Virus record (IMG/VR): IMGVR_UViG_3300020166_000747
Direction: 5' to 3' (one strand)
Length of the DNA: 64,000 bases
From: a virus
The notes under the pieces were generated by a model. It searched no databases. It was not told where the DNA came from and was given only the letters and a program-made list of their open reading frames with translations. The stretch's first letter is position 1, and each line of letters opens with the position of its first letter. The translations under genes were made by a program, and so were the position numbers. This document shows positions 261-38,621 of the stretch, piece by piece.

Positions 261-1093
261 TGAAGATAGCATTAGCATTTTTTGGACAGCCGAGAGGCAT
301 AGACAATGATATGATTATCGAACAATGGTTAAGGATACTAAGAGATTCTTCGGAAACTTGCACTTTTGACGTGTATGCTCATTTTTGGGATAACCAAAGT
401 AATACTAAAATTTCAGATACATATGAAGAATTTGTTAAAGAAACCCAAGTTGATGCTAACACACATTTTGACAAATTTATAAAGGCATTTAGACCGAAAC
501 AACTACACATTGAGCCTTCAAACGTACTAGATAAATTATCTAGTTTGTATTTTAGCAATAATGAATATGTAAACGCACGAGTTGATCCGGCTATTCCAAG
601 TACTGGACGAGCGACTATTGGCCAATGGTATAGCACCGAACGGGTACTGGACCAGGTTATTAATAGCGGAGTAGAATATGATATAGTCATCAGAATCAGA
701 CCAGATATAATATTCGAACAGACCGAAAGCCATCATAGATTTTTTGAATTTTCGCTAATAAACCATTTTAAGGCATGTGCTGTCGGTAACAGATGTATTG
801 GTGTTCCTTCTATAGAAATAAAATCAGGAACTCCGATTCTGAATGATTGGTGGACGGTTATGTACGGAGGTTTTGTTGAAGAGTTTAAAACAAACTTAAC
901 AAAAAATATATCATCGCAAATCAATGCAATATTTACAACTTTAGATACACCAAATAGTATACAAGAAAATGCACTACACCGACATTGCATCAAACTTGAC
1001 ATCAACGCAGTTTCAACAAAAGCTGAGGCGAGAATTTATAGAAAAGAAGAAGGAACTTGGGTATGGCCTAATTACTTAGTAGATAGCAAATAG
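260..1093 (+). CDS. Putative glycosyltransferase-like protein (MKIAL.F.GQPR / YD.VIR.RPD family of large phages and giant viruses)
   Basis: GAGGAG RBS; motifs MKIALAFFGQPR, DVYAHFW and YDIVIRIRPD. Function inferred from family resemblance and context. Confidence 0.55.
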   Translation: MKIALAFFGQPRGIDNDMIIEQWLRILRDSSETCTFDVYAHFWDNQSNTKISDTYEEFVKETQVDANTHFDKFIKAFRPKQLHIEPSNVLDKLSSLYFSNNEYVNARVDPAIPSTGRATIGQWYSTERVLDQVINSGVEYDIVIRIRPDIIFEQTESHHRFFEFSLINHFKACAVGNRCIGVPSIEIKSGTPILNDWWTVMYGGFVEEFKTNLTKNISSQINAIFTTLDTPNSIQENALHRHCIKLDINAVSTKAEARIYRKEEGTWVWPNYLVDSK

Positions 1094-1098
1094 ATTAT

Positions 1099-2322
1099 CT
1101 ACGTGTGATACTTAGTCTTAACACTGTCCCACGTACTTTGCATTTCTGCATTAGTATCTTTTCCACAGAAAATTGAACAAGTGCGTAAGCGTTTATTTCT
1201 TACATTGTTATCGTTAAAGTTTTCGACATATTTTTCTTGGAACATTGGACCATCAATTATATCTTTCAGTGTAACATGGCGAAGAGAAATTTTATCTTTA
1301 CCATAATCATTGATAAACGATTTTAATTGTGATGTTTCTTCATTATCATATGCATAATACTTGCTTGCAGTGAAGCAACAGGGCCATACTAATCCTTCAC
1401 TACTGACAAAGAAACTATCGGATTTCAAAACTAGACAATCAATTTTTGTAGAACCTAAATCTTTTTCCCATTGGGTCAATGGTCTAGTGTTATCCATTTT
1501 AAATGGCTTCGGAATATACTTAGGCCTATGTTCCTCTAACTTAAAAGTTTTTAATGCGTGTTTCGATTCTACATCCTCGCCGTCAACCTTGTTAAACGTT
1601 GTCTTACTAATATAATCCTTGATGACATTATTTTGCCAGCGACCTTCCATTGGAGGTTCAAGTACATAATCTAACTGTCCAGTTTCATTAAACACATGCA
1701 TTGCCGGAGTAGCCACTCTATCCGTATCACTATTGACAAATCCGAGTGCCTTTTTATGAAAGAAGTGATCAAACCCCATTTCTTTAGCTAGTGCCTCTGC
1801 TTCAGTAACTTGATGTTGATTGTGCTTGAATACTAAATAATCCCAACGTGCAGTTCCGCCAGCCCCTATATAATTTTTGGCTGCGGACATAATCTTATGC
1901 CAGTGAGTCCCACGACGATAGATATGGTTCGTATCTTCTAACCCATCGATACTAAAAGTAACATGCCCGTTACTACCGACAAGCCTACCTAAATCCTGCC
2001 AGAACTTTTCATTACGTCCACTTGCATTAGTATTCATAGTCACTTTGATGTTTGGATTCAATTCCTTTGTGTACTCTAGAATTGAAATCAATTCTGGGTT
2101 TGTCATCGCATCGCCATAATTACCACAGAAAGAAATAGAAAATAATCTAGAGATTAATTCAACTGGGAACCATTTTTTGTATTGTTCTAACGTAACATAC
2201 GTTTCTGTAAACATCGGATTCTTTATACCGCCGGATTGTCGTCTGTTACAAACCGGACATAATGCGTTACACAAGCTGCTCACTTCTAAGTCCAAATGTT
2301 GTAGTCTGTCATATGTATACAT
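1099..2322 (-). CDS. Radical SAM protein with C-terminal twitch/SPASM-like Cys cluster
   Basis: CNALCPVC (CX3CX2C), CGNYGD, TNAS, FSIDG; C-terminal IDC...VWPCC...CSIFC. Confidence 0.9.
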   Translation of the reverse strand: MYTYDRLQHLDLEVSSLCNALCPVCNRRQSGGIKNPMFTETYVTLEQYKKWFPVELISRLFSISFCGNYGDAMTNPELISILEYTKELNPNIKVTMNTNASGRNEKFWQDLGRLVGSNGHVTFSIDGLEDTNHIYRRGTHWHKIMSAAKNYIGAGGTARWDYLVFKHNQHQVTEAEALAKEMGFDHFFHKKALGFVNSDTDRVATPAMHVFNETGQLDYVLEPPMEGRWQNNVIKDYISKTTFNKVDGEDVESKHALKTFKLEEHRPKYIPKPFKMDNTRPLTQWEKDLGSTKIDCLVLKSDSFFVSSEGLVWPCCFTASKYYAYDNEETSQLKSFINDYGKDKISLRHVTLKDIIDGPMFQEKYVENFNDNNVRNKRLRTCSIFCGKDTNAEMQSTWDSVKTKYHT

Positions 2323-2324
2323 AA

Positions 2325-3515
2325 TTAATGTATCCTCTTAAATTCTGGTAAATAATCGCCGATAACTTGGTTACGTATCGTATCTAAGTTACGAGTGTAT
2401 TCTTTTGCTTGTTCCCATTTCTCTGGTTTATCAGGTCCACCGAACATGTTTTTAAATTCTTTTAATTTGTAATCTTCAAATACATTACTAAATCGTTCAT
2501 GTATGCTATCACGCATAGCTTTAGGTAATGCTGCAGGGGATAGAATGTCTGGATCATACACATAGTTATGATGAACCCATACTCCATGTTCTCTATGGAA
2601 GAAGTTATAAAAGTCTCCTAGAGTAGAGTAGTTCATCCATGATACAGTTTGCGTTACATCAATTTCAAAGTCTTCTTCCTTAATACGTAAGAAGTTCTTC
2701 ATAACAGTGTCCCATTTAGTTGGGTATCGAATGTAATGATTTCTATCACCTAGGTCGTCGATGCTACAACTAATCTTCACATGATCGAACTTTCTCCATA
2801 ACTCTATCACTTCTTCACTCATTAGCGTCATGTTGATATTGTACCACAGTTTGATATCTGTTTTACCCATATCAACTAAACGCTCTAAGAACTTAAAGTG
2901 TTCTTTGATTAGTGTTGGTTCTCCACCATTAATATAGAATGTCTTTACTCTGTCGCAATGCTGTAGTAAGTCATTCCAGAACTCTTCACGTTCAGGCCAT
3001 CTAAAGCCTTCCATCGTGTCATAGCTTGTGAGTTTGAATGTTGTACTGCTTTGTAGTTTGTCGTAATCGTTACGCCATTTAGATGATGATGCTGGATTAC
3101 AAGTACGACATGCAACATTGCAAACATTACCTAATCTAAGCTCAACGAAATCGAGTTGTACATCTTTCATGTAGCCAGTATCGTCAGTGGCGTCCCTAGC
3201 GACTCCTACAGTGTACTCAGGATAGTTCTTAATCTCTTCTAACCGTTTGCTTTGCATACCTTTTGCTTCTTCCGAGTAACAACGCATACATGCCTTAGGC
3301 TTCTTTCCATCAAGTACTTGTACTCTTGCTTTGCGGAATGACTCGCTATTCATCGTTTCGAATACGGTATCTCTGTTGAGATTATAATAACGTCGATCAC
3401 CATCTTTCGCACTACTAAGTGCTTGTCTGTGATCCGCAATACAGCAATGCGTCACACCCCCATGAGGATGTGTCGCTAGGTGTTGAAATAGTAATGGGCA
3501 GAATGTATCAGTCAT
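2325..3515 (-). CDS. Radical SAM protein with N-terminal twitch-like domain
   Basis: CNVACRTC, GGEP, SIDD; N-terminal FCP...HCC...CMRC. Confidence 0.9.
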   Translation of the reverse strand: MTDTFCPLLFQHLATHPHGGVTHCCIADHRQALSSAKDGDRRYYNLNRDTVFETMNSESFRKARVQVLDGKKPKACMRCYSEEAKGMQSKRLEEIKNYPEYTVGVARDATDDTGYMKDVQLDFVELRLGNVCNVACRTCNPASSSKWRNDYDKLQSSTTFKLTSYDTMEGFRWPEREEFWNDLLQHCDRVKTFYINGGEPTLIKEHFKFLERLVDMGKTDIKLWYNINMTLMSEEVIELWRKFDHVKISCSIDDLGDRNHYIRYPTKWDTVMKNFLRIKEEDFEIDVTQTVSWMNYSTLGDFYNFFHREHGVWVHHNYVYDPDILSPAALPKAMRDSIHERFSNVFEDYKLKEFKNMFGGPDKPEKWEQAKEYTRNLDTIRNQVIGDYLPEFKRIH

Positions 3516-4788
3516 TATCTATTTGCCCGTGTACATACGCAGATAACTCAGGGTATACCGCTCTCCAATCTAAGTTTCTACGTTGATCCATCTTGTCGGA
3601 GTATGAAACGAATTCTCGTAACATTTCTAAATCAGGTTCATTACTTTCGATTGCTTTATAATATCCCGTTAACATATCAAATTCTTTAGTATCGGGGTTA
3701 ACCAAATCTATTAGTTTTTGCAAGTCCGGTAACACGTAACTTCCAAACTTAGTTGGATCTAAAAATGGTGGGTTTTGAATAATGTTCCAGCTTTGTTCAA
3801 TCTCTTTATCGTAACGTAGTTGATAGTCCAATACTTTTTGTCGTAATTCCCAATTAGTAGGCGTGGTCAGCGGACAAATTGTACTATGTACTTGAACTGT
3901 AATGCCATCTAATTCCATTAGTGTATTGAAGTTCTCTTCCCATTGCTCCAAGTCTATCCCGTAACGTGAATATTCTTGTTCAGGTCCCCATGCATCAATA
4001 CTACATACAACAATCCAATTGTCAATTTTCCCAGTAGCGATCATTTTTTGAATCCTTGCAAGTTTCTGTTTGAACAGGCGAGGTTTATGCATCAAATTAC
4101 TAAACATCTTTATACCGATATTAGAATTATCATTCTCCGATTCTTCAAAGAATGATAAACATTCCTCGAACTCTTCTTTCTGATACAGTGGTTCGCCACC
4201 TAAAATATGAAACATTTTAATTTTGTGTGAATGTTCGTGCATCCATTCCCAGAACTCACCCTTGCGCTTTTCGTATCTATTTGAACTTGAGAAATTACCA
4301 TCAAGACTATAGTACTTACTAGCAGGACCATACTTTTTAATCTCTGCTTCAATTTTACTACTAAATTGCGGTGTGCAATATGTACATGCTAGATTACATG
4401 TATTCTTAAAGTATACCTCAACACAGGTAGGAGTCACTTCGTCTTGTAATTCGTTGTTTTCAGAATACATAATTTCATGCGGATTCCAATTATTCATCGG
4501 AGTGAAAACCTGTCTTTCACTCTTGCCGCCGGAATCTTCGACACGTTTGCAGTATTGGCAACTGTCCTTAGGCCACTTCCCATCAACCATGCGCTTGCGT
4601 TCTTCAACTAATTTCGGATGCTTGTTAAAATCTTTAAAATTATCGTCCGGCGATAGATTAAATCCGCCGGTTCGGTGACACATATTGATTTGGTCAAGAC
4701 TTAGATATAATGTTAACCAACTCCATTTTAACGCACACGCTGCCTCATTCTGAATAGGGAACATTCTTCCTGATTTATTTTCTTCCAT
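3508..4788 (-). CDS. Radical SAM protein with N-terminal twitch-like domain
   Basis: CNLACTYC, GGEP, SIDAWG; N-terminal CALKW...MCH...CQYC. Confidence 0.9.
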   Translation of the reverse strand: MEENKSGRMFPIQNEAACALKWSWLTLYLSLDQINMCHRTGGFNLSPDDNFKDFNKHPKLVEERKRMVDGKWPKDSCQYCKRVEDSGGKSERQVFTPMNNWNPHEIMYSENNELQDEVTPTCVEVYFKNTCNLACTYCTPQFSSKIEAEIKKYGPASKYYSLDGNFSSSNRYEKRKGEFWEWMHEHSHKIKMFHILGGEPLYQKEEFEECLSFFEESENDNSNIGIKMFSNLMHKPRLFKQKLARIQKMIATGKIDNWIVVCSIDAWGPEQEYSRYGIDLEQWEENFNTLMELDGITVQVHSTICPLTTPTNWELRQKVLDYQLRYDKEIEQSWNIIQNPPFLDPTKFGSYVLPDLQKLIDLVNPDTKEFDMLTGYYKAIESNEPDLEMLREFVSYSDKMDQRRNLDWRAVYPELSAYVHGQIDND

Positions 4789-6175
4789 CAAATCGTCTCC
4801 ACCAAAGATACAGTTCTGTATCTAATTTGTAAATATCTTCTAGCCGATATTGTTCTTGTCTAATCTGGTCAAGTCTATCTTGATATCCTTTACCATTCTT
4901 AAACTCTTGTTCGTGTGTATCTGGCCATTGTTCTGCAAATGTCGGACGTTTCTTCATTTCATGTAGAGTGTTAATAAGTGTCTCTTGCTTTTGTGTACCA
5001 CGTGGTTCCATATATGCTAATAACTCATCAATTTTTCTGTCAAGAATATGACGTGGCCACGCAAACGGTGACATAACAATATCAGCATGAAATGCAAACA
5101 TGATTTTTGTTTCCATGCGCACATCTAATTCTAGTGATAAGTCAAACAAATCTTTTAATGAGAACATGCCTGGACCTGTGATAGTCAAGTCAAATAGCAT
5201 TTTATGCTTACCACCAGGTGCTGCCAGTCCTTGCTTGAAGTTATCTAGCCATTCTTCCCATACGATACCCTTACGAATAAACTCTACAATATCACCAGTA
5301 CCATCGATAGATGCGCACATTAACCAGTCTTTAAACTGTGGTAGATAATCAAATAGATTTTTACCTTTGAAGTCTACACGTGATAGATTAGAATTATAAC
5401 GCAAATAACAGTTCTTTGCAGAACCGTTGTTTACCATTTCTTCTAATGCCCACCAATGCATATCATACATAAGAGGTTCGCCGCCGACCCAATAGATTTC
5501 TTCTACTATGCCGTCACTAATTGCTTTCTTGAACTCAGGTTCAGCAACGTCTTTCTGAAACTTTTGCATTTTCTGTTTAACAGTAGGTTGCATAAAGGGC
5601 TGATTTTCAATACTCCACATGTCGTGTTTCTTCTTTTCAGCTTCCCATGCACTTGATAATTGCTCACCGCACATACGACACTTGAAGTTGCACAAGTTTG
5701 AATAACGATAGTCAAAGGAAATTACTGGCATTTCTGTACGCCCATCATCATCTGTCTTATCAAATGCTTCTTGTATCTTATCTTTGAATAGTACACCTGT
5801 GAACCATTTGCGATACGAACTTAGTGATAGAGTGTCATCATTACACACATCACATTGTGGAATGCGCTCTCCTGCCATTAGCTTCTTACGAATGTCACGC
5901 ATGTAAGGAGAGTTCCAATGTTCTTCTAGCGTTGTTGGATTAAAGTCATCAACGTCAGTTTTAGAATCTGTTACTTCCCCATACTTTGAATCATTTGATG
6001 CATCGATATACTGCTTTTGAAAAGAGTGTTCTTCACGTGATGCACAACACATTCTACGTTCACCTTGTGGCGAGATATAAGTATGTGACCACGGTGCCAT
6101 ACAGAAAGTTTTGTTTTCACTTTCTTCAGCACAACTTGCATCATCTTTCCAGATTGGTACGATTCGTTTAGTCAA
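4775..6175 (-). CDS. Radical SAM protein with N-terminal twitch-like domain
   Basis: CNFKCRMC, GGEP, SIDG; N-terminal FCMAPW...MCC...CDVC; TTG start with GGAGG RBS. Confidence 0.9.
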   Translation of the reverse strand: MTKRIVPIWKDDASCAEESENKTFCMAPWSHTYISPQGERRMCCASREEHSFQKQYIDASNDSKYGEVTDSKTDVDDFNPTTLEEHWNSPYMRDIRKKLMAGERIPQCDVCNDDTLSLSSYRKWFTGVLFKDKIQEAFDKTDDDGRTEMPVISFDYRYSNLCNFKCRMCGEQLSSAWEAEKKKHDMWSIENQPFMQPTVKQKMQKFQKDVAEPEFKKAISDGIVEEIYWVGGEPLMYDMHWWALEEMVNNGSAKNCYLRYNSNLSRVDFKGKNLFDYLPQFKDWLMCASIDGTGDIVEFIRKGIVWEEWLDNFKQGLAAPGGKHKMLFDLTITGPGMFSLKDLFDLSLELDVRMETKIMFAFHADIVMSPFAWPRHILDRKIDELLAYMEPRGTQKQETLINTLHEMKKRPTFAEQWPDTHEQEFKNGKGYQDRLDQIRQEQYRLEDIYKLDTELYLWWRRFDGRK

Positions 6176-7718
6176 CTATAATTCCTCCGAGGGCATCAGT
6201 CTCCGTATCCCACCCACCTACTTTTATTTTCTGTTCGTGTGCGTCATCTCCGCTACCATACTCTTCAGTCGTAGCAGGATCAAGCCCACGTGGTGCATTT
6301 TCAAGAATAAATGTCTTAGACTTTATTTGTTCAGCGGTGGGGACTTCTGCCTCAAGTGTGTTATACCAATCAGCCATCGGACCTTTAAAGGTTTCAGCGA
6401 AACTCTTATTACGTCTTACATCAAACTGTGAAAAGAATGCCTTAAAGTCGTTGTACAATTTACCTTGATCTGCTGTGTTCTTATGTGGTGTTTTAACAAT
6501 ATCAAGATAGTCGATCAGTCTGCGTACACTTGCGCGTTCATGTTCGAATATTTTTTTACTATTAAGAAAAAGCCATGAAGTCAATTTGTCTTTGTAGTAT
6601 TTTTTAAGATGTTCTGGTAAAATCGCGGCACTCTGAAAACTTGGGAATCGTAGAATGTTCAATGTAAGCGAAGGAGCACGTGGTCCGTATTCTTCACGTA
6701 GTTCAACTATTTCATCCATAAATTCAGTGATGCTATTTAAGCACAACGAATTGATTGTCATCATCATATGTAGTTTCTGTACATTAGATTCTTTAAGAAC
6801 ACGATGGATACTATTCATCCATTTGTCATAATCCAAACCGTCACGTATATACTCAGCTTGATCTTTTGTTGCTTCCATAGAAGTGTAGATTTCAAAGTTA
6901 GGAACATACCAAGACTTTTCAATCAACTTGTCTAGTACTTTAGGAGTTTCTGGTGACAAGTTACTATTAATAGCAAATCGCATATTACGACCACGATCTG
7001 GGTTCTTTTCAAACCAATCAAACAACTTCCAAGTACCCGTATGCATGATGGGTTCGCCACCAGTAATACGAATTTCTTCTAGACTGTCTGCTAAATCACT
7101 TTCCCACCATGTATGAAACGCTTGAATGAATGGATTGTCTTCTGCTTTCTTTGTTGTAGGTTCTGCCCACGGAGCAGTGTCCATAAAGTGGCCGCGCCCA
7201 TCAGACTGAATATTTTGATATGCGCCATAATCATTGATGTCTTTAACCCATGCAGTTGAGAATGCTGGATTACAGTAAGTACACTTTAGATTACATGCTC
7301 TATCAAATGAGATTTCAAGTGTACGCAACGGTACATTGGAATCCCATGGCATTTCCATACTCTTGTCAAGGTCTTCATTGCTGAAGATTTCAGTTTTGAA
7401 TACGCGGTCAGAGATATGGTCTTTGCCCATATCTTCTACTTTCCAACAGTATTCGCATTCACTAGGACGTTCGCCCTCTTGCATCATCTTACGCATCTTC
7501 TTCTTATGCATAGTATTATGAATTGCAGAAGGATTGTCTTTTAGTTCTTCGACTGGAATCCAGTGTCCAGGTGGGTGATGACAACTTGTAGTTTGCCCAT
7601 GACCCAACCAAATAGTTGCATTATACCATTTTGCACCACAATAGCTTGCGCTCTTGGTATCAATTATACGTTCTTTATACTGATGAAGGGTTTCCCCATT
7701 CTTGTTGTCACGCGCCAT
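6168..7718 (-). CDS. Radical SAM protein with N-terminal twitch-like domain
   Basis: CNLKCTYC, TGGEP; N-terminal CGAKW...SCHHP...CEYCW. Confidence 0.9.
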   Translation of the reverse strand: MARDNKNGETLHQYKERIIDTKSASYCGAKWYNATIWLGHGQTTSCHHPPGHWIPVEELKDNPSAIHNTMHKKKMRKMMQEGERPSECEYCWKVEDMGKDHISDRVFKTEIFSNEDLDKSMEMPWDSNVPLRTLEISFDRACNLKCTYCNPAFSTAWVKDINDYGAYQNIQSDGRGHFMDTAPWAEPTTKKAEDNPFIQAFHTWWESDLADSLEEIRITGGEPIMHTGTWKLFDWFEKNPDRGRNMRFAINSNLSPETPKVLDKLIEKSWYVPNFEIYTSMEATKDQAEYIRDGLDYDKWMNSIHRVLKESNVQKLHMMMTINSLCLNSITEFMDEIVELREEYGPRAPSLTLNILRFPSFQSAAILPEHLKKYYKDKLTSWLFLNSKKIFEHERASVRRLIDYLDIVKTPHKNTADQGKLYNDFKAFFSQFDVRRNKSFAETFKGPMADWYNTLEAEVPTAEQIKSKTFILENAPRGLDPATTEEYGSGDDAHEQKIKVGGWDTETDALGGIIVD

Positions 7719-9276
7719 ATTTTACCTCGTATTCTTCTTTAGCTTCATTCCAAAAGTCTGTCATTTCAGGGAATGTTTCTAAGAAATTTAGTCCCCTACG
7801 CTTATCATACTGTGTAAAGTATTCGTAGAAACGAATTAACTTATCACTTAATTCTGCGTCACTCATATTTAGTCCTTCTTTTGCCCAAGCCAAATCACGC
7901 TCAAGTTTTAAGACTTCATAGTTCTTAAATCCAGTATACTTACGTCCATACAAATCATTTGGTAGAACATTTGCTTTCATGTAATCGATATTGCTTTGAA
8001 TAGTATCAAGCATGATTGGATCTGCTAGTTGAATTGTCATCCAGTCTGGATAACGTAAGTAAGGAATATCAAACCAAACACGTTGACGTTTCTTGCGCAC
8101 AAATTTTGGATGCTTAAATCCATTTCGGTCGGGAGGCTGAATAACTTTGTCTTCTTGATTTTCATACCCAAATTCTTCGCGCAACTTTAGAATCATATCT
8201 AAGAACCCACGTAAATTTGGTATACTAAGGAGAGTAAAAGTGTTAATAAACGAAATCTCTGTACCATCTGTTTCAGACAATACTCGACGGCAATTTTCAT
8301 ACATCGTATCAAAATCAAGGCCATCACGAAGATATTCAGCCTGCTTCCCGACACTATCAACACTAACATATAAACTAAAATGCTTACATGCTGGTGCGAC
8401 ATACCAATGATTTCCGCTATCTGGGTTGAAACGTTCTGGATCTTCCCAAACGCGGACTTCTTCTAATTTCTGTATTTTCTCAATGAACTTATCCATTAAC
8501 GCTGGTTGAGGAGGCGCCATGTTTGACGTAATACTCAAGTCTAAGAATGCGTTTGGATTTTCATTGACATAATCTAATACTTTGAATGTATTCTTATCCA
8601 TAAGAGGTTCACCACCTGTCATTCGGAATACTTTCAATTCGTTGTACACTTCTGGAAACCATTTCCAAAATGCTTCAATATAAGGATTATCTTTACGTGC
8701 TACTTCAAGTGGCATCATACCAGTCTTACGTAGATAATCAATATCATTATGCCCAGTACCGTTAGCAAATCTAAAGCCACCATGTTTCTTAACATCATCT
8801 TCCCATGCAGTAGATAGATGCGGAGAACAATAAGAACACTTTAGATTACATGCTTGATTGAAATTTACTTCAACGTATCGCGGTGTTATCTTGTGATCCC
8901 AAGGATTGTTTACTACTTCGTCCCATGCTTCTTTGACCCACCACTCACTACTGCGATAGTGTCTATCACTTAGACGACCACCTTCCGGGGCATTCGGTGC
9001 ATCTTCTACATTCCAACAATACTGACAACCTTCAGGACGTTCACCCTGCAACATTTGCTTACGCTCTTGCATCTTAAATGTTGTATTGTGTAATGCACCT
9101 ACATCTTTTTTCAGTTCATCTAACGGAATAGCATGTGTAGGTGGATGATAACAACTATGTGTACGGCCTTGCGGCAGATGCAAACTTACTTGCAACCACT
9201 TTGCCATACACATAGATGGTGAAATAGAATTTAGCTTTTGACGTGTGCTTACTGCATCGTCATCATAATTTGACAT
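7708..9276 (-). CDS. Radical SAM protein with N-terminal twitch-like domain
   Basis: CNLKCSYC, TGGEP, SVDS; N-terminal CMAKW...SCYHP...CQYCW. Clear paralog of 6168..7718. Confidence 0.9.
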   Translation of the reverse strand: MSNYDDDAVSTRQKLNSISPSMCMAKWLQVSLHLPQGRTHSCYHPPTHAIPLDELKKDVGALHNTTFKMQERKQMLQGERPEGCQYCWNVEDAPNAPEGGRLSDRHYRSSEWWVKEAWDEVVNNPWDHKITPRYVEVNFNQACNLKCSYCSPHLSTAWEDDVKKHGGFRFANGTGHNDIDYLRKTGMMPLEVARKDNPYIEAFWKWFPEVYNELKVFRMTGGEPLMDKNTFKVLDYVNENPNAFLDLSITSNMAPPQPALMDKFIEKIQKLEEVRVWEDPERFNPDSGNHWYVAPACKHFSLYVSVDSVGKQAEYLRDGLDFDTMYENCRRVLSETDGTEISFINTFTLLSIPNLRGFLDMILKLREEFGYENQEDKVIQPPDRNGFKHPKFVRKKRQRVWFDIPYLRYPDWMTIQLADPIMLDTIQSNIDYMKANVLPNDLYGRKYTGFKNYEVLKLERDLAWAKEGLNMSDAELSDKLIRFYEYFTQYDKRRGLNFLETFPEMTDFWNEAKEEYEVKYGA

Positions 9277-10254
9277 TTAATGTCCGCTCCAACCAGTGGT
9301 TTTTTCTGTTGCTAATGGATTCTTTACTCTTGGGGGATTTGAGTATACTCGCTTGAAAAATGCTGCTACTTCTGGAGTTGGATCACATAGTTCCATACCA
9401 ATCTTATCAACTAAGATATCACCGATACGCAAACATTCATCAAACAACTTATCATAGTCCCATTCTACTTTTGTGTTTTCGCATTTCATTTCACCGCCTT
9501 TAAATGGTGGGAAGACTTCGTTTTCGAAATACTCTTTGAACCAATCATAGCTAGAAATGTTTTCTAGTACGAAATCAGGGTTAAGATTGATATCATAGCA
9601 ACCAAGACGTGCGCCGAATAATGCCCAGATGCCGTTCTCTACATCAGAACCAATGTTACACCATGTAATTAAACGCTCATAGTTCTTAGGCCAGATACGT
9701 TTCTTAAAGTCTTCTACAGGAACTTTCTTACCTTCATCAAGTGACATTTTAGCACCTTCACGATAACCAGCACGGAATGCTTGGAACGGTGATCCTGCAT
9801 TATATACGAGTGAGTACACATTGTTCATCTGAATATAGTTCAAGTCCCAACAGAAGTCAACCTTTTTTGTTTCATCTTCTGCATTTTCATGTGTCTTCAT
9901 ATCAAGTACAAGTTGTACTGGCCAGCATTTAATTCCGCCGTTGCCATAAACAAGTCCGTTCACAACGTTCTTCGCTGACCATGAGATAACCGAGTTAGCT
10001 AAGTCAGTGTCTTCTGGGAACGTAAGTTCAATATCAAAGAACTTTTCATCTACGATGTTATCACCGTCGATAGTAATAAATCTGTCTGTATCACTTTGTC
10101 TCGCACATTCCTTGTGCGCATTATCAAAACCTTTAACGCCATCTACACGTTTTGCAAATGGAAACTTCTGTAGCAAGTCTGCCCAGTGTTTCTCTTTATT
10201 TGGTTCATCGTAACTTAGATAAAAGATATCTAGTTCACCAATTTCTAGTTTCAT
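9277..10254 (-). CDS. Putative GT-A-fold glycosyltransferase
   Basis: DIFYLSYDEPN, VDGVKG...AH, and a DxD motif after a hydrophobic strand (FITIDGD). Confidence 0.65.
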   Translation of the reverse strand: MKLEIGELDIFYLSYDEPNKEKHWADLLQKFPFAKRVDGVKGFDNAHKECARQSDTDRFITIDGDNIVDEKFFDIELTFPEDTDLANSVISWSAKNVVNGLVYGNGGIKCWPVQLVLDMKTHENAEDETKKVDFCWDLNYIQMNNVYSLVYNAGSPFQAFRAGYREGAKMSLDEGKKVPVEDFKKRIWPKNYERLITWCNIGSDVENGIWALFGARLGCYDINLNPDFVLENISSYDWFKEYFENEVFPPFKGGEMKCENTKVEWDYDKLFDECLRIGDILVDKIGMELCDPTPEVAAFFKRVYSNPPRVKNPLATEKTTGWSGH

Positions 10255-10256
10255 TC

Positions 10257-10832
10257 TTATGCTCTCCTTAACGAATAACTATCAAAATACTTACGAGTGT
10301 AAATACTTATATCGTATTTATAGTCGTAGTTAATTGTTACTTTTTCACCACTCAGCAAATCACTAAACTTAATCATTTGCATACTAATCAGGAACTCTGG
10401 TTTATCTTTGTGTGTAATAAAGAAAGGATGTGAATCAGTTCCAGCAACTACAACTGATTGGTTCTTGTCTACGTTTGAACGTGCTACTAGGTCATCACTT
10501 GCACTGATAACAACAGCATCATCTGTCATTTCTATATTGATATCAGCACCATCAATTTCTACAATCTTTGATATTTGGTTCTCTGCACTACGTTGCTTAA
10601 TATTAACTTTACGCTTTACAATATCATATATCAATGGATTGTCACTACGCTTTACAGTATAATCTGAAAACTTATATGTACCATCGATAAACGGAAGAAT
10701 ATCATCTAGTTCAAATATCGCATACATGTTATCAGTGTCATCTGTTCTTCCACTGATACTTGTTATGGTACCAGTGTCATCAAAGTATACATATCTGTTT
10801 GTTCTATTTTCTTCTAATGTACTTGTAATCAT
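10257..10832 (-). CDS. Hypothetical protein
   Basis: Likely start MITSTLEE at 10832, an ATGA overlap with the upstream stop. The track extends it to 10877. Confidence 0.7.
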   Translation of the reverse strand: MITSTLEENRTNRYVYFDDTGTITSISGRTDDTDNMYAIFELDDILPFIDGTYKFSDYTVKRSDNPLIYDIVKRKVNIKQRSAENQISKIVEIDGADINIEMTDDAVVISASDDLVARSNVDKNQSVVVAGTDSHPFFITHKDKPEFLISMQMIKFSDLLSGEKVTINYDYKYDISIYTRKYFDSYSLRRA

Positions 10833-11686
10833 AACACTGCCTTTTCGTAAGTCGCAATCTTTTCTTGTGTCATCCATTCTTTCTGTACATAGTGTACTGG
10901 AAGGTTCTGAACAAAGTTACCGATACGAACTTCAAGATTGTCTGCTAATTCACTTGGGATACTCTTTGTCCAGATGTTATCAATCTTTGCTCTTTCAATA
11001 TTCTGAACATGTGATTTCATATGAACGAATGTAGGAACATCCTTAATATCATAATCGCACACAACTTCTTCAATGTCAAGTAGTTTAATCGCAAGAGCAT
11101 ATGCCATATCAGCACTCATCCAATTCTGACCGATACCTTTAAGAAACTTATCGTAGTAAACATTCCAATGTGTCATAATAAGTTCAATCATACGGAAAAA
11201 CTCATATGCAGGTTGTGTCTTTTTAAAATACGAAAAGTTGCTGTATACGTCTGGCAGTTCTAGTTCTGTAAACTTCTTACGGTAGAAGTCATCTACTACA
11301 TCTTCGCCGCGAAATGTTTTTACGTTTGTACAACACCATACGTCTTTAGTAGCTAGATAATCCCACCAATGATCCACGCTGTGTGTAAACACCATATCAC
11401 TATCCAAGATAATCGTTTCATCAAACGGAGACATGTGAATGTACTTCCACTTATTATGAATCTTCCAATTATCTGTACCAGCATCATCATTCCAAGGAAT
11501 ATCTACAATATGGTCAAAGACTTTACGGTGTTTATCTTGTACTAAACTCTTAGTGTGTTCATCTACGCATACACAAATTGCGTTCTCTTGCTGTGTGGCT
11601 TTTAAACTAAGTGCTAGAGCATATGTCATTTCTAGGTAGTCAAACTCATTATTATTCTGAGCAATTACAATGTAACCTTTACTCAT
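10829..11686 (-). CDS. Putative glycosyltransferase (GT8-like)
   Basis: SPFDETIILDSD (DxD), ALALSLK N-terminal helix, late HMK/HY motifs. Confidence 0.7.
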   Translation of the reverse strand: MSKGYIVIAQNNNEFDYLEMTYALALSLKATQQENAICVCVDEHTKSLVQDKHRKVFDHIVDIPWNDDAGTDNWKIHNKWKYIHMSPFDETIILDSDMVFTHSVDHWWDYLATKDVWCCTNVKTFRGEDVVDDFYRKKFTELELPDVYSNFSYFKKTQPAYEFFRMIELIMTHWNVYYDKFLKGIGQNWMSADMAYALAIKLLDIEEVVCDYDIKDVPTFVHMKSHVQNIERAKIDNIWTKSIPSELADNLEVRIGNFVQNLPVHYVQKEWMTQEKIATYEKAVL

Positions 11687-12549
11687 AGTGTTTCTCCTAG
11701 TTCTAACATCATATCAACATTACGTTCAATCGCACGTTTATTCATAATATGTAAATCTGTATTAGTGAAGCGGGACAACAAGTGTTCTTCGATTGTTTCT
11801 GCTTTAGCACAATACATGATAACATCATTCGCACTATTTACCCTAAAGATATCATCTAAGTCAAACGAGTTGTTAAGATAGTCTATAGGAAGTGACGGCG
11901 CACTAAATGCTACATTTCCGTTTAACATGTGCAATGCAATTGCAAATGCAAAATCGTTTCTAAACAGATTACCAGAGCAATTGTATAGAGCATAATAGTA
12001 TTTGTAGTTGTACTTGATATGTGTGATTAGATTGAACAAGTTTTCTGCGAACTCGCTCTTTCTAAAGAAGAACACAGTCGCCCAACACATTGGAATAGTA
12101 AAATCATCAATATAGGAAACATTACCGCCATGTCTACCAGCAATGTCCCTATATTGATAATTAATCATGAAGTCATTCTCGCTTCCCCATACCTGGTCAA
12201 GTGTGTCACTCATTATAAAGTAATCACAGTCAATGACCAATGTTTCTTCATATGGTGAAAGTTCATATACTTCACTGCGTCCCATATTTTTAAAGGATGC
12301 ATACTCAGGACTGTTCGCAGTATCTTTGAACAGTCTAGTATTCTCTGGTTGAAAGTTATCTGAAATAATAGTTCTATCAAAATATTGCTTGATTAGTTCC
12401 GGATGTTCATCTGCCGAGGCGCTATCTGTAACGAGACAAATTTCGTCAAATTCACTAAGATTTTTCCTAGCATAACCAGCACTTGCACATGCAATCTTCA
12501 CATAATCAACGTAACCATTATTTCTTGCAAAAAGAATAATACCGCGCAT
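11683..12549 (-). CDS. Putative glycosyltransferase (GT8-like), paralog of the adjacent gene
   Basis: SPYEETLVIDCD (DxD), FRNDFAF, HIMNK. Confidence 0.7.
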   Translation of the reverse strand: MRGIILFARNNGYVDYVKIACASAGYARKNLSEFDEICLVTDSASADEHPELIKQYFDRTIISDNFQPENTRLFKDTANSPEYASFKNMGRSEVYELSPYEETLVIDCDYFIMSDTLDQVWGSENDFMINYQYRDIAGRHGGNVSYIDDFTIPMCWATVFFFRKSEFAENLFNLITHIKYNYKYYYALYNCSGNLFRNDFAFAIALHMLNGNVAFSAPSLPIDYLNNSFDLDDIFRVNSANDVIMYCAKAETIEEHLLSRFTNTDLHIMNKRAIERNVDMMLELGETL

Positions 12550-12929
12550 TAGATTTCAAGTACCTTTTCAATCTTGCGTGAACTACGCAATTTTTGATAG
12601 TCATTGTAGTACTCATTGATTACTTCGAAGTAAAGACTGCTAATATCTTCTAAAAACTTTTCAGTGTCATCAATTTGGATTGGAATATCATTCTTGTCCA
12701 ATAAAATTAGACTTGTCTTACCAGATACAACAGCCATATTTACAAAAGCAATAAGCTCCTGTGATACGCGGAATGTACCGCCATTAGTGCTGTGTGACAA
12801 TAGGTTTTGTGTCTTGACTTTAAGATTATTCTTAGCCAAGTTAAATGTTTGCATTGTGTTTGAAAAGTCCAGTGCTTTAGCAAGACGTTCTTGTTCAGCA
12901 CTAGAGGAATTGATAGTTTCGTTTGACAT
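12549..12929 (-). CDS. Hypothetical protein, first gene of the glycosyltransferase/radical SAM operon
   Basis: AGGAG RBS; stop overlaps the next start. Confidence 0.75.
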   Translation of the reverse strand: MSNETINSSSAEQERLAKALDFSNTMQTFNLAKNNLKVKTQNLLSHSTNGGTFRVSQELIAFVNMAVVSGKTSLILLDKNDIPIQIDDTEKFLEDISSLYFEVINEYYNDYQKLRSSRKIEKVLEI

Positions 12930-12953
12930 GGTTATTCTCCTAATATTACTTCT

Positions 12954-12989
12954 ATTATATAGAAATATTAGAGAAATGTCAAGTGTTAA
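12954..12989 (-). promoter_or_regulatory. sigma70-type promoter for the GT/radical SAM operon
   Basis: Minus strand TTAACAC-TTGACA (12982-12977), N17, TATAAT (12959-12954): perfect consensus. Confidence 0.85.
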
Positions 12990-13960
12990 AGTTCAGAAAT
13001 ATGAGAATATGTCGGAGTTGGAGTAACAACACCTAATCCAGATACATCATTATCATCTGCACGTTGTTGATCAATCGTTACAGTAAGTGTGCCTTCTGTA
13101 TAGTCAGTGCCTGTCCAAGTGCCACCACCGTCATTTGTCCATGTACCTGTATCAGATACGTGACCATCATTGTATTCAATCTTAACATCAATCGCAGAAC
13201 CATTTGTTTTCGCATACACATTAAGTTGGTTTTGTACATAATCACCAATGCCACCTTTTGTATACACAAGCGCATATGTTGCAGTTAGACCAGTAAATCC
13301 TACACCCGGAGTACCAACACTTGCTGAACTTTCTGTAGAATTATTTGATAATTTAACAGTTGCAATATCTGTTAATAAATCCGCCCATGCATCACTTTGT
13401 GCATGTGATATATCATAACCTGTTAATTCAGTTGATATACGAATTTCACCACCTGAGTTAAAGAAGTTACGCATTGCATCTGTATCTGAGAATGTAGTTT
13501 TGAATTCGTAATTTTGTGGGTTATTTGAATTATCCCAATGATTACCTGTTGATCCAGGATCTACGAATGTCTTTGATGACGAAATTTTGTTTGTCTCAAG
13601 CGTCATCAAAGAGATGTCGTAGTTTAGTTTATTAGCACGAACACTAGTAATATCATTTTCTAGGTCTGGAATTAACTGAATGATTTTGTTTGGTGCTGGG
13701 AAATCTGAGTCACTAGTACTAGCCGGAATATTAATAGCTGTTGATTGGTGTTGAGCGGCGAACTTAATAGATGTTAATAGTTCATCCCAATTCGCCGCCC
13801 GTACTTTTGAACCAGCGGTCACAAGAGTTACCAGTAGCTGTGATTGGCCATAACCCGAATCACCTGCCCCTAATCCAACAATCTCATTAATATCATTTGC
13901 GAAACCGTTGAAATCAGATGCCCTGATTTTGCCTCCCAGATAGTAACTTTGTGGTGCCAT
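12986..13960 (-). CDS. Virion structural protein (baseplate/short-fibre associated, putative)
   Basis: Ser/Thr/Gly-rich; shares GYGQ, FF..GGEIR.S and W..L motifs with 13985..14902; lies at the end of the baseplate operon. Confidence 0.6.
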   Translation of the reverse strand: MAPQSYYLGGKIRASDFNGFANDINEIVGLGAGDSGYGQSQLLVTLVTAGSKVRAANWDELLTSIKFAAQHQSTAINIPASTSDSDFPAPNKIIQLIPDLENDITSVRANKLNYDISLMTLETNKISSSKTFVDPGSTGNHWDNSNNPQNYEFKTTFSDTDAMRNFFNSGGEIRISTELTGYDISHAQSDAWADLLTDIATVKLSNNSTESSASVGTPGVGFTGLTATYALVYTKGGIGDYVQNQLNVYAKTNGSAIDVKIEYNDGHVSDTGTWTNDGGGTWTGTDYTEGTLTVTIDQQRADDNDVSGLGVVTPTPTYSHISEL

Positions 13961-13984
13961 TTAATTTGTCCTCAGTGTATTATT

Positions 13985-14902: not shown

Positions 14903-14979
14903 ATTTTTGCTCCTAAGTTGACTAGTCGTTTAGTTGGCTTACGCCTTTAAAAACCAAGAAAGATTTTCCGGATTCTTTC

Positions 14980-15642: not shown

Positions 15643-15670
15643 TCGTATCTCTCTTTTCAAATTCTAAGTA

Positions 15671-38585: not shown

Positions 38586-38621
38586 TTAACACTTGACAAT
38601 GCATCACTTAGGATGTATAAT
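38586..38621 (+). promoter_or_regulatory. sigma70-type promoter for gp55-gp47-SDR-gp46
   Basis: TTAACAC-TTGACA (38593-38598), N17, TATAAT (38616-38621): perfect consensus. Confidence 0.85.

What the first reader, a model, noticed from the sequence alone, without database searches (positions are those of the whole stretch)
1099..12989. Phage operon of six radical-SAM enzymes and three glycosyltransferases: an undescribed glyco-modification pathway
Seen: eleven abutting or overlapping minus-strand genes behind one perfect sigma70 promoter: hypothetical, GT, GT, hypothetical, GT, then six CX3CX2C proteins. A further GT-like gene converges on it from the left. No obvious precursor-peptide ORF or transporter is present. 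Established: twitch/SPASM radical SAMs include sugar dehydrogenases (BtrN) and peptide/protein maturases. Inference: the phage builds and radically tailors a glycan, either on virion proteins (the operon abuts the baseplate genes), on DNA (anti-restriction hypermodification) or on the host surface. The substrate cannot be read from sequence.
Basis: partly seen in the sequence, partly recalled or inferred. Interest (0 to 1): 0.82.

Follow-up and report, generated by a model that had tools for sequence, protein, structure and literature searches.

The report
Phage sugar-transferase cassette with radical-SAM array
A giant marine phage carries, directly after its baseplate genes, three sugar-transferring enzymes followed by six iron-sulfur 'radical' enzymes of an uncharacterised family that is multiplied many-fold in such phages and in predatory bacteria; this points to an unknown kind of sugar chemistry whose target molecule is still open.

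Summary
Eleven abutting minus-strand genes (1099-12929) follow the only 12/12 sigma-70 promoter of the region. They are gA, two glycogenin-like (GT8-like) transferases, gD, a GT-A-fold transferase and six CX3CX2C proteins.

- **The radical SAM enzymes.** Five are full members of NCBIfam NF033640, an uncharacterised family with a four-cysteine BtrN-like 'twitch' domain moved to the N terminus. The sixth has the usual domain order.
- **The phage.** The contig is about 20% of a jumbo T4-like phage related to PA5oct, RsoM2USA and Atu_ph07.
- **Spread of the cassette.** The block U1-gA-gB-gC-(gD)-gE is widespread in viral contigs and present in cultured Ralstonia phage RsoM2USA. Radical SAM genes follow it in 46 of 80 loci.
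- **Copy number and conservation.** Related records give 7 to 21 matches to the family model; a complete 342.6-kb relative has 12 above the curated cut-off. gE, R1, R3 and R5 are 81-87% identical where the flanking virion proteins are 45-61%.
- **Sugar context.** Relatives place NDP-sugar enzymes next to the array. In bacteria the family sits mainly in Bdellovibrionota, also in arrays, with GT2 as a top neighbour family.

Most likely this is a sugar-building and radical-tailoring cassette. The acceptor (virion protein, small molecule or DNA) is unresolved. Earlier notes of this scan had flagged the same stretch.

The parts
12954..12982 (-). Perfect sigma-70-type promoter (TTGACA, 17 nt, TATAAT), followed by an AGGAG ribosome-binding site before gA
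   Evidence: two such sites in the window against 0.16 expected
12549..12929 (-). gA, 126 aa, no cysteine, one hydrophobic stretch; first gene of the conserved cassette; function unknown
   Evidence: No family hit. Orthologs lie in 64 of 80 gE loci and in RsoM2USA gp354.
11683..12549 (-). gB, 288 aa, GT8-like (glycogenin-like) glycosyltransferase with DCD motif
   Evidence: Apart from one non-significant chain, profile A6 matches only glycogenins in the PDB, E about 3e-5 over the first 110 positions; D95, D97, H265 and K269 are invariant.
10829..11686 (-). gC, 285 aa, paralog of gB (GT8-like) with DSD motif
   Evidence: weak Pfam Mannosyl_trans3 hit and PHROG 1903
10257..10832 (-). gD, about 191 aa (the ORF list gives 206 aa from 10877; ATG 10832 gives the usual ATGA overlap with gC); poorly conserved; function unknown
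   Evidence: only 38-49% identical in relatives where gE is 80-96%
9277..10254 (-). gE, 325 aa, GT-A-fold glycosyltransferase (SYDEP and D63-G-D65 motifs) with a helical C-terminal half
   Evidence: AF2 pLDDT 81. Foldseek top matches are GT-A enzymes. VIA Z is 8.2-9.9 over residues 2-155. Viral GT matches include that of mycobacteriophage Che8.
7708..9276 (-). R1, 522 aa, N-terminal-twitch radical SAM (NF033640, 305 bits)
   Evidence: An rSAM gene starts within 400 nt after gE in 29 of 80 loci, and the one in RsoM2USA is an R1 homolog.
6168..7718 (-). R2, 516 aa, N-terminal-twitch radical SAM (NF033640, 305 bits)
   Evidence: a 50% identical ortholog lies elsewhere in RsoM2USA
4775..6175 (-). 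R3, 466 aa, N-terminal-twitch radical SAM (NF033640, 332 bits); one of the two most conserved genes
   Evidence: own clade with a long stem and short tips
3508..4791 (-). R4, 427 aa, N-terminal-twitch radical SAM (NF033640, 221 bits); variable member, with an ortholog in only one of 31 related loci
2325..3515 (-). R5, 396 aa, N-terminal-twitch radical SAM (NF033640, 354 bits); 73-90% identical across the lineage
   Evidence: AF2 pLDDT 95.5
1099..2322 (-). R6, 407 aa, radical SAM with CX3CX2C at residues 18-25 and a C-terminal twitch/SPASM-like cysteine set (usual domain order); not a member of NF033640
   Evidence: 53 bits against a cut-off of 170. Homologs co-occur with N-twitch arrays in Bdellovibrionales MAG loci.
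12986..15660 (-). U1, U2 and U3: distal baseplate-module proteins that always precede the cassette; candidate glycan acceptors (inference only)
Evidence: U1-gA adjacency is kept in RsoM2USA and in many IMG/VR loci.
260..1093 (+).
   Evidence: PHROG 13607 only (unknown function); nothing in Pfam, NCBIfam or PDB

Best explanation
The stretch is a cytoplasmic sugar-building and sugar-tailoring cassette of a jumbo T4-like phage. Host RNA polymerase transcribes it from a consensus sigma-70 promoter.

Two GT8-like transferases (gB, gC) and a GT-A transferase (gE) assemble a short glycan from nucleotide sugars. The nucleotide-sugar genes lie next to the array in relatives.

The six radical SAM enzymes each cleave SAM at the CX3CX2C cluster and abstract a hydrogen from a sugar carbon. 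The fully cysteine-ligated auxiliary cluster of the twitch domain serves as the electron sink or relay, as in BtrN. Possible outcomes are oxidation to a keto sugar, epimerisation, dehydration/deoxygenation or C-C chemistry. Each paralog would act on its own position or sugar, either on the nucleotide sugar or on the transferred glycan.

The most likely acceptor is one of the phage's own virion proteins of the distal baseplate. That would make this a phage counterpart of the virus-encoded virion glycosylation of giant viruses and mycobacteriophages.

Shown here: gene content, family membership, folds, promoter, synteny, conservation, expansion and neighbourhoods. Inferred: sugar as the substrate, the type of radical reaction, and the acceptor.
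For: **Enzyme identity**
- R1-R5 score 221-354 bits to NF033640, whose cut-off is 170.
- The CX3CX2C motif, the GGEP motif and four N-terminal cysteines (C6, C24/25, C76, C79 in R5) are invariant.
- The N-terminal part of the family profile aligns to the C-terminal twitch domain of BtrN, E 3e-4.

**Transferases**
- gB and gC are glycogenin-like.
- gE has the GT-A fold.

**Sugar context**
- In 9-11 related loci the array is followed by two SDR epimerase/dehydratases, a DegT/EryC1 aminotransferase and a TylC3-type C-methyltransferase; six loci also hold a B12 radical SAM.
- Among 131 neighbours of the family in bacterial chromosomes, GT2 and other radical SAMs are the top Pfam families (6 each), followed by PfkB kinases, ABC transporters and methyltransferases (3 each).
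- One Pseudobdellovibrionaceae cluster reads GT2-GT2-rSAM-rSAM-rSAM-MFS-PfkB-rSAM-PfkB.

**Add-on logic**
- 46 of 80 gE loci have radical SAM genes downstream. The other 34 keep the upstream cassette genes and gE, most with a second gE-like gene downstream, and have none.

**Selection**
- gE, R1, R3 and R5 are 81-87% identical to the complete relative, against 45-61% for the flanking virion proteins.
- Each paralog forms its own old clade.

**Position and localisation**
- The cassette sits exactly at the end of the baseplate operon, whose last gene is a virion protein in PA5oct.
- No protein has a clear membrane helix; only gA has a borderline hydrophobic stretch.
Against: - No member of NF033640 has a known substrate.
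- The structural neighbours of R5 are a flat list of radical SAM cores, Z 10-13: anSME, SkfB, CteB, BlsE, SuiB, MoaA, viperin. This does not favour sugars over peptides.
- The GT2 enrichment near bacterial members is modest (6 of 131), and most neighbours have no annotation.
- Adjacency to baseplate genes may only reflect one ancestral insertion site.
- The consensus early-type promoter fits DNA or host-directed functions at least as well as virion modification.
- Some family members are fused to TPR repeats, which hints at protein partners.
- The nucleotide-sugar genes of this phage itself lie outside the DNA I could read.
Confidence: 0.55

Rival explanations
1. The radical SAM enzymes are protein or peptide maturases. 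They would install cross-links, epimerise residues or otherwise edit a phage protein, such as gA, gD or a baseplate protein. The transferases would glycosylate the same or another protein independently.
For: - The highest structural Z-scores for R5 are to peptide-modifying enzymes: anSME 12.9, SkfB 12.1, CteB 12.0, SuiB 11.9.
- The best PDB sequence-profile hits are a RiPP cyclopropyl synthase and SkfB.
- TPR fusions occur in the family.
- HTTM and Asp/Asn-hydroxylase genes occur near some bacterial members.
Against: - Only four auxiliary cysteines are present, which makes a twitch and not a seven-cysteine SPASM domain.
- The Pfam and NCBIfam scans, the only ones run, showed no RiPP recognition element, and the operon holds no short precursor gene.
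- gA has no cysteine.
- All peptide-maturase NCBIfam models score far below their cut-offs.
- The Z-scores to sugar or nucleotide enzymes (BlsE 12.0, MoaA 11.7, viperin 11.5) are tied with the peptide ones.
- The annotated neighbours in phages are sugar enzymes.
Confidence: 0.15
2. The cassette makes a free small-molecule glycoside (aminoglycoside- or nucleoside-like) or a glycolipid. The product would act on the infected cell or on competitors and would not be attached to the virion.
For: - The auxiliary domain is BtrN-like.
- DegT aminotransferases and SDR enzymes lie next to the array.
- The bacterial cluster with PfkB kinases and an MFS exporter looks like a small-molecule gene cluster.
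- R3 and R5 are extremely conserved, which suggests an invariant small substrate.
- Earlier unchecked notes report ACP and FabF genes in the same island.
Against: - The phage cassette has no exporter or resistance gene.
- GT8 and GT-A enzymes of this kind usually act on proteins or glycans.
- The cassette is tied to the end of the baseplate module in very distant phages.
Confidence: 0.15
3. The cassette hypermodifies phage DNA. The transferases would put sugars on modified bases and the radical enzymes would tailor them, giving protection from restriction.
For: - The phage has T4-like ancestry.
- The consensus host-type (early) promoter resembles that of T4 DNA-modification genes.
- The enzymes are soluble and highly conserved.
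Against: - The complete relative has a single thymidylate-synthase-family gene, with a canonical score (338 bits), the ALPPCH nucleophile motif and the uracil-type PFNIASY motif. No second hydroxymethylase-like copy was found.
- The enzyme family also forms arrays in Bdellovibrionota chromosomes beside GT2, kinases and exporters.
- The transferases are glycogenin-like and GT-A, not T4-type DNA glucosyltransferases. That comparison rests on my own knowledge and was not tested against DNA GT families.
Confidence: 0.1

Closest known systems
NCBIfam NF033640 (N_Twi_rSAM, 'twitch domain-containing radical SAM protein')
   Same: R1-R5 match the model end to end, well above its cut-off. They share the domain order (N-terminal four-cysteine twitch, then the radical SAM core) and the CX3CX2C and GGEP motifs.
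   Different: The family is only a named model. I found no paper and no solved structure for any member. R6 is outside it.
BtrN, the 2-deoxy-scyllo-inosamine dehydrogenase of butirosin biosynthesis (PDB 4M7T)
   Same: BtrN is a radical SAM core plus a single auxiliary [4Fe-4S] twitch domain. Its cysteine pattern, a hairpin-spanning CX18C followed later by CX2C, is from my own knowledge. The family profile aligns to its twitch domain, E 3e-4. Its pathway likewise combines sugars and aminotransferases.
   Different: The domain order is permuted, N-terminal here and C-terminal in BtrN. There is no significant full-length sequence similarity. BtrN does not stand out structurally. BtrN is a single-copy enzyme of an antibiotic pathway, not a many-fold paralog array.
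Virus-encoded virion glycosylation: Mimivirus fibril glycans with the GT8 glycogenin paralog R707, chlorovirus PBCV-1 A64R, and the capsid/tail-tube glycosylation of mycobacteriophage Che8
   Same: The virus brings its own GT-A/GT8 transferases and, in relatives, its own NDP-sugar pathway, next to structural genes. gE matches STIV A197, Mimivirus R699, PBCV-1 A64R and the Che8 transferase structurally.
   Different: None of those systems is known to use radical SAM enzymes (my own knowledge). Glycosylated virion proteins have not been shown here.
T4-like marine environmental viral genome with 12 radical SAM genes (Nishimura et al. 2017, PMC5332604)
   Same: Marine T4-like phages with many radical SAM genes have been noted before, in the context of Fe-S metabolism.
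   Different: That paper gives a count only. It does not name a family, a permuted twitch domain, a GT cassette, synteny or a function.

Membership tests
NCBIfam NF033640 N_Twi_rSAM | Whole-protein score above the curated cut-off of 170 bits with end-to-end coverage | tested here: met
   R1 305, R2 305, R3 332, R4 221 and R5 354 bits, covering model positions about 1-397. R6 scores 53 bits and is not a member. Re-found in six-frame search.
NCBIfam NF033640 N_Twi_rSAM | N-terminal four-cysteine twitch domain preceding a CX3CX2C radical SAM core | tested here: met
   C6, C24/25, C76, C79, then C132/C136/C139 and GGEP197-200 are invariant in 5 paralogs and 56 homologs. Pfam SPASM hits lie at residues 25-112 (R3) and 6-80 (R5).
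BtrN-type twitch radical SAM sugar dehydrogenases | Sequence or structure relationship beyond the shared superfamily core | tested here: inconclusive
   Only the twitch part aligns (E 3e-4). phmmer of R5 against the PDB found nothing. BtrN is not among the listed structural matches. The domain order is permuted.
BtrN-type twitch radical SAM sugar dehydrogenases | Oxidation of a secondary alcohol of a sugar or cyclitol | not testable with these tools
   Needs anaerobic enzyme assays.
SPASM peptide maturases (anSME, AlbA, PqqE, SuiB, CteB) | Seven-cysteine SPASM motif binding two auxiliary clusters | tested here: not met
   Only four conserved auxiliary cysteines in R1-R5.
SPASM peptide maturases (anSME, AlbA, PqqE, SuiB, CteB) | Precursor peptide gene and/or RiPP recognition element; match to a curated maturase model | tested here: inconclusive
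   The junctions leave no room for a peptide gene. Maturase NCBIfam models score 15-38 bits against cut-offs of 268-855. No dedicated RRE search was run.
Cofactor or activase radical SAMs (MoaA, QueE, NrdG) | Score above the equivalog cut-off | tested here: not met
   MoaA models score 16-32 bits against cut-offs of 231-325, QueE about 20 against 260, NrdG 19-23 against 131.
Glycosyltransferase family 8 (glycogenin/LgtC type), for gB and gC | GT-A N-terminal nucleotide-sugar-binding region with DxD; similarity to GT8 members | tested here: met
   Apart from one non-significant chain (E 1.5), profile A6 matches only glycogenin-1/2 chains, E 2.6e-5 to 1e-3, over positions 5-110. D95-x-D97 is invariant, as are H265 and K269 near the C terminus.
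Glycosyltransferase family 8 (glycogenin/LgtC type), for gB and gC | Match to the Pfam family model above threshold | tested here: not met
   No Glyco_transf_8 hit. Only sub-threshold DUF5460 and Mannosyl_trans3 hits. So these are 'GT8-like', not filed as GT8 members.
GT-A fold glycosyltransferases, for gE | Rossmann-like nucleotide-diphospho-sugar transferase fold with DxD | tested here: met
   AF2 pLDDT 81. Foldseek top hits are hyaluronan synthase, WrtF, GlcAT, TarP and SunS. VIA Z is 8.2-9.9 over residues 2-155, tied with nucleotidyltransferases of the same fold. D63-G-D65 is invariant.
Virus-encoded virion glycosylation systems | Viral transferases and viral nucleotide-sugar genes beside structural genes | tested here: met
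   The cassette follows the baseplate module. The sugar genes were seen in relatives only.
Virus-encoded virion glycosylation systems | Glycan attached to virion proteins | not testable with these tools
   Needs glycoproteomics of virions.
Phage DNA glycosyl hypermodification (T4 type) | dCMP/dUMP hydroxymethylase supplying the base to be glycosylated | tested here: inconclusive
   The complete relative G001 has one thymidylate-synthase-family gene that looks canonical. The window's own genome is only about 20% available.

The most novel reading that the evidence does not exclude
Jumbo phages, and independently Bdellovibrionota, run a so far unknown radical carbohydrate chemistry. A family of permuted-twitch radical SAM enzymes, with a dozen or more paralogs per genome, would edit the sugars of a virus-made glycan displayed on the distal baseplate. 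That would give the first radical-SAM-tailored viral glycan and a new enzyme class for post-assembly sugar editing.
Probability: 0.3. Interest if true: 0.85.

Novelty: new variant of a known kind. Interest (0 to 1): 0.72.

Why it matters
- **An orphan enzyme family.** A named radical SAM family with thousands of members has no known reaction. My search found 1,050 clusters at 50% identity with E below 1e-30. This cassette gives it a genomic logic (transferases first, radical enzymes as add-ons, nucleotide-sugar genes beside them).
- **An experimental entry point.** Ralstonia phage RsoM2USA is cultured and carries the core U1-gA-gB-gC-gD-gE-R1.
- **Unusual for phages.** These phages spend several per cent of their genome on oxygen-sensitive Fe-S enzymes, which is unusual for oxic marine viruses. 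Selection on some of those enzymes is stronger than on the virion proteins next to them.
- **If the product is a virion glycan.** Virus-encoded glycosylation, known from giant viruses and mycobacteriophages, would extend to jumbo phages with a new chemistry. It would then bear on host recognition and on shielding of the particle.
- **If the product is a small molecule or a DNA modification.** It would be a new phage weapon or a new counter-defence.

Tried and rejected
**Near-identical relatives**
- Near-identical DNA in the phage collection: none.
- Plasmid homologs of R5: none.

**Reaching bacterial genomes**
- Scan with R5 alone: pattern hits but no relatives.
- The scan worked only with alignment A4, built around the CNL[KR]CRMC motif.

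**Literature**
- 'N-terminal twitch', the family name, and jumbo phage + radical SAM + glycosyltransferase gave nothing specific.
- The 'moraphage' paper concerns another lineage.
- The amoC-phage preprint mentions only HpnH.

**Searches that did not discriminate or found nothing**
- Structural search of R5 gave a flat list of radical SAM cores, so it did not separate substrate classes.
- Most partner proteins of relatives have no Pfam, NCBIfam or PDB match: the 337-aa, 243-aa, 270-aa and 871-aa families.
- Protein-atlas look-ups of R5 and U1 returned only unnamed viral clusters.

**Ideas tested and dropped**
- A recurrent link to type IV pilins: only one real case among 476 near neighbours.
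- T4 late-promoter boxes (TATAAATA): not enriched, 6 found against 6.4 expected, so timing could not be read from them.
- The perfect promoter was not found at the gA position in the few relatives whose gA upstream region I hold (L020, L022, L119, L122).

**Slips and unavailable tools**
- One mistaken call (62) errored.
- VIA-align was busy twice.

Full report
**Observation**

The eleven minus-strand ORFs are real and tightly packed. I call them gA, gB, gC, gD, gE and R1-R6.

| Gene | Coordinates | Gene | Coordinates |
|---|---|---|---|
| gA | 12549-12929 | R1 | 7708-9276 |
| gB | 11683-12549 | R2 | 6168-7718 |
| gC | 10829-11686 | R3 | 4775-6175 |
| gD | 10257-10832 (10877 in the ORF list) | R4 | 3508-4791 |
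| gE | 9277-10254 | R5 | 2325-3515 |
| | | R6 | 1099-2322 |

- The junctions run from a 17-nt overlap to a 2-nt gap.
- The 56-nt spacer between the preceding gene U1 and gA reads TTGACA, 17 nt, TATAAT, then AGGAG 7 nt before the ATG.
- Such a perfect site occurs twice in the 64-kb window, against 0.16 expected.
- R1-R6 each carry exactly one CX3CX2C motif and match Pfam Radical_SAM.
- The converging gene at 260-1093(+) could not be shown to be a glycosyltransferase.

**What the contig is**

- The record is a 72.9-kb linear viral contig, estimated about 20% complete.
- Its portal is 47-57% identical to those of Pseudomonas phage PA5oct, Sinorhizobium phage Phosso, Agrobacterium phage Atu_ph07 and a Vibrio jumbo phage.
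- PHROG hits identify a T4-type baseplate wedge, hub/lysozyme, portal and tail fibres.
- So it is a jumbo T4-like myovirus.
- Close relatives are abundant in marine metagenomes. More than 100 clusters (at 90% identity) hold R5 orthologs at 77-90% identity, on contigs up to 343 kb.
- One relative is a complete 342,607-bp genome with terminal repeats (G001).

**The radical SAM enzymes**

- R1-R5 are full-length members of NCBIfam NF033640, 'twitch domain-containing radical SAM protein'. They score 221-354 bits against a cut-off of 170.
- MoaA, QueE, NrdG, viperin and all peptide-maturase models score far below their cut-offs.
- The five are only 19-25% identical to one another.
- All five keep four cysteines in the first 80-110 residues (C6, C24/25, C76, C79 in R5), the CX3CX2C motif and a GGEP motif. 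The same columns are invariant in 56 diverse homologs.
- Pfam places its SPASM model at the N terminus of R3 and R5.
- A family profile aligns that N-terminal region to the C-terminal twitch domain of BtrN, E 3e-4.
- The auxiliary-cluster domain is therefore BtrN-like but permuted to the front.
- R6 is different. Its CX3CX2C is at residues 18-25 and a cysteine set lies at the C terminus, the usual order. It belongs to no curated family.
- The AF2 model of R5 is confident (pLDDT 95.5). Its structural neighbours are a flat list of radical SAM cores at Z 10-13: anSME, SkfB, CteB, BlsE, SuiB, MoaA, viperin. The fold therefore does not reveal the substrate class.
- I found no paper and no solved structure for the family.

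**The transferases**

- gB and gC are paralogs. Apart from one non-significant chain (E 1.5), a profile of both matches only glycogenins in the PDB, at E about 3e-5 over the nucleotide-sugar-binding half.
- That profile has an invariant DxD, and invariant His and Lys near the C terminus.
- They miss the Pfam GT8 threshold, so I call them GT8-like.
- gE, modelled at pLDDT 81, has a GT-A domain at residues 2-155 with SYDEP and DGD motifs.
- Its best structural matches are glycosyltransferases, including viral ones: STIV A197, Mimivirus R699, PBCV-1 A64R and the Che8 transferase. Nucleotidyltransferases of the same fold score about the same.
- gA and gD have no detectable family.
- No protein of the operon has a clear membrane helix; only gA has a borderline hydrophobic stretch.

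**Conservation and spread in phages**

- All 31 viral loci fetched with R5 are related phages. Most keep the order gB-gC-gD-gE-R1-R2-...-R3-...-R5-R6.
- R4 is variable, and extra genes are inserted between R2, R3 and R5.
- These 21-kb loci hold 1-10 CX3CX2C genes, median 7.
- Whole records give more matches to the NF033640 model:

| Record | Size | Matches at E ≤ 0.001 | Above the 170-bit cut-off |
|---|---|---|---|
| G001 (complete) | 342.6 kb | 15 | 12 |
| G002 (fragment) | 187 kb | 7 | 6 |
| G003-G005 (fragments) | 100-200 kb | 19-21 | 12-14 genes |

(All.)

- G001 has a second island of seven CX3CX2C genes, four of them full NF033640 members, plus a short gE-like gene, 30 kb from the first.
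- Against G001, identities across the region differ sharply:

| Proteins | Identity to G001 |
|---|---|
| Baseplate wedge, giant protein, U3, U2, U1 | 47%, 45%, 59%, 61%, 54% |
| gA, gB, gC | 78%, 72%, 69% |
| gD | about 40% |
| gE, R1, R2, R3, R5 | 85-86%, 87%, 78%, 84%, 81% |
| R6 | 52% |

- In a FastTree tree each of R1-R5 falls in its own supported clade. R3 and R5 have long stems and short tips. The paralogs are therefore old and individually constrained.

**The GT cassette occurs without radical SAMs**

- Searching with gE shows that the block in front of the radical SAMs is the more general unit.
- At least 589 viral stretches encode a gE relative.
- Of the best 80 loci, 75 hold gB, 74 gC, 64 gA and 39 U1 within 6 kb.
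- 46 of the 80 have a radical SAM gene nearby, and in 29 one starts within 400 nt after gE.
- The other 34 have none, and most carry a second gE-like gene instead.
- The cultured Ralstonia solanacearum jumbo phage RsoM2USA carries U1-gA-gB-gC-gD-gE-R1 as gp355 to gp349, at 25-48% identity. It also has a short gE paralog, and an R2 ortholog (50%) elsewhere.
- Vibrio phages K566/K567 have a more distant four-gene array.
- In PA5oct the homologs of U1 (gp123) and U3 (gp126) are annotated 'ESI-MS/MS', meaning they were found in virions. Its baseplate operon ends at the U1 homolog, exactly where the cassette begins here.

**Sugar context**

- Downstream of the array, 9-11 related loci encode two SDR epimerase/dehydratases, a DegT/DnrJ/EryC1 aminotransferase and a C-methyltransferase of the NDP-hexose type. 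Six related loci also encode a B12-binding radical SAM.
- One inserted partner family is fused to a SAM methyltransferase domain in some phages.
- Earlier unchecked notes of this scan report a nucleotide-sugar operon just left of the window, and a roughly 52-kb island with fourteen radical SAM genes.

**Bacteria**

- A motif-based scan of one genome per species returned 222 relatives. The best 80 are overwhelmingly from Bdellovibrionota MAGs, some on megabase contigs, and a few other phyla also appear.
- The family is above cut-off in 33 of 151 genomes of that phylum, with up to 11 or more copies. It is above cut-off in 2 of 200 other Pseudomonadota and in none of 14 control genomes.
- There too the genes stand in tandem arrays: 208 family members in 73 loci.
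- Among 131 neighbours on large chromosomal contigs, the commonest Pfam families are GT2 and other radical SAMs (6 each). PfkB kinases, ABC transporters and methyltransferases follow (3 each). Single WbsX-type transferase and NDP-hexose 2,3-dehydratase genes also occur.
- One cluster reads aaRS-like, unknown, GT2, GT2, N-twitch, N-twitch, rSAM, MFS, PfkB, rSAM, PfkB.
- gE relatives (42-68% identical) stand beside N-twitch genes in three MAG contigs. Some short 'MAG' contigs may in fact be phage DNA.

**Mechanism**

Shown here:
- The operon combines three GT-A-type transferases with six radical SAM enzymes, five of them carrying a permuted, fully cysteine-ligated twitch domain.
- It is driven by a host-type promoter.
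- It is soluble.
- It is an old, selected, expandable module that sits at the end of the baseplate operon.
- In relatives it neighbours deoxy/amino-sugar genes.

Inferred:
- The transferases build a glycan.
- Each radical enzyme abstracts a hydrogen from a defined sugar carbon, with the auxiliary cluster taking the electron as in BtrN. The result would be keto, epimeric, deoxy or branched sugars.
- The very high conservation of R3 and R5 suggests that these two act on an invariant small substrate such as a nucleotide sugar. Variable paralogs such as R4 would diversify the product.
- The acceptor is open. I favour a virion protein of the distal baseplate, by analogy with giant viruses and mycobacteriophages and because of the conserved position. 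That position may be only historical, and an early-type promoter fits other targets as well.

**Rivals**

- **Protein or peptide maturation.** This is kept alive by the structural neighbours and by TPR fusions. It is weakened by the four-cysteine twitch, the absence of a precursor gene, and the sugar neighbourhood.
- **A free glycoside or glycolipid.** This fits the BtrN/DegT/PfkB/MFS theme, but the phage has no exporter.
- **DNA hypermodification.** This fits the promoter and the lineage. However, the complete relative has only one, canonical-looking, thymidylate synthase homolog, and the family also thrives in bacterial chromosomes.
- **Host-surface remodelling.** This is least likely, given that the proteins are soluble and no flippase, polymerase or transporter is present.

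**Novelty**

- The enzyme family is already named, and many radical SAM genes in a marine T4-like genome were counted in 2017 (PMC5332604). The parts are therefore not categorically new.
- These points are new as far as I could find:
  - the GT cassette with radical SAM add-ons;
  - its fixed place after the baseplate module, from marine phages to RsoM2USA;
  - the scale of the paralog expansion;
  - the stronger conservation than the neighbouring virion proteins;
  - the shared enrichment in jumbo phages and Bdellovibrionota.
- The product and the reaction remain unknown.

**Limits**

- Only about 20% of the genome could be read.
- Model coordinates could not be inspected.
- Many neighbour proteins have no annotation.
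- The FastTree topology has long-branch warnings.

Noticed in passing
window 15701-24688 (-): A 2995-aa ORF between the baseplate wedge gene and U3. It is 45% identical to a 2952-aa protein of the complete relative. It sits where PA5oct has a 3858-aa virion protein detected by mass spectrometry.
   Followed up: partly
window 38593-38621 (+): The only other perfect TTGACA-N17-TATAAT site in the window; the gene it serves was not examined.
   Followed up: no
window 33561-37682 (-): A 1373-aa protein with an N-terminal endolysin-like domain (PHROG 7) joined to a virion structural protein family; probably a virion-borne cell-wall hydrolase.
   Followed up: no
L120:5597-16775 (G001 95.6-106.8 kb): In the complete relative, a second island of seven CX3CX2C genes (four of them full NF033640 members) and a short gE-like gene. 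It lies a few kb from the phage's thymidylate synthase homolog and 30 kb from the main array.
   Followed up: partly
L022:11188-15075 (+): In one relative the R6-type radical SAM is fused to the 871-aa protein of unknown function that follows it as a separate gene in other relatives. This suggests the two work together.
   Followed up: no
proteins P0169, P0252, P0136, P0225: Some family members are fused to TPR repeats. Others are tandem double or larger fusions of 800-1400 aa.
   Followed up: partly
L081:2963-16845 (Pseudobdellovibrionaceae MAG, 308-kb contig): A bacterial cluster: class II aaRS-like gene, unknown gene, two GT2, two N-twitch radical SAMs, a third radical SAM, an MFS transporter, two PfkB kinases and a fourth radical SAM. 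It looks like a small-molecule glycoside gene cluster.
   Followed up: partly
L021:6090-6821 and L021:9187-9999: Partner proteins inserted between R2/R3/R5 in relatives but absent from this window. By eye, one has an RTGST motif like a sulfotransferase and one a GCSLT motif like an SGNH hydrolase. No family search confirmed either.
   Followed up: partly
L001 (Vibrio phage K566, 161.5-168.3 kb): Cultured Vibrio jumbo phages K566/K567 carry four distant N-twitch-like radical SAM genes interleaved with proteins of 311-363 aa, some of them annotated hypothetical. This is a second possible laboratory model.
   Followed up: no
window 10829-10877: The listed start of gD (10877) overlaps gC by 49 nt. 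ATG 10832 gives the common ATGA overlap and a length like that of the orthologs.
   Followed up: yes
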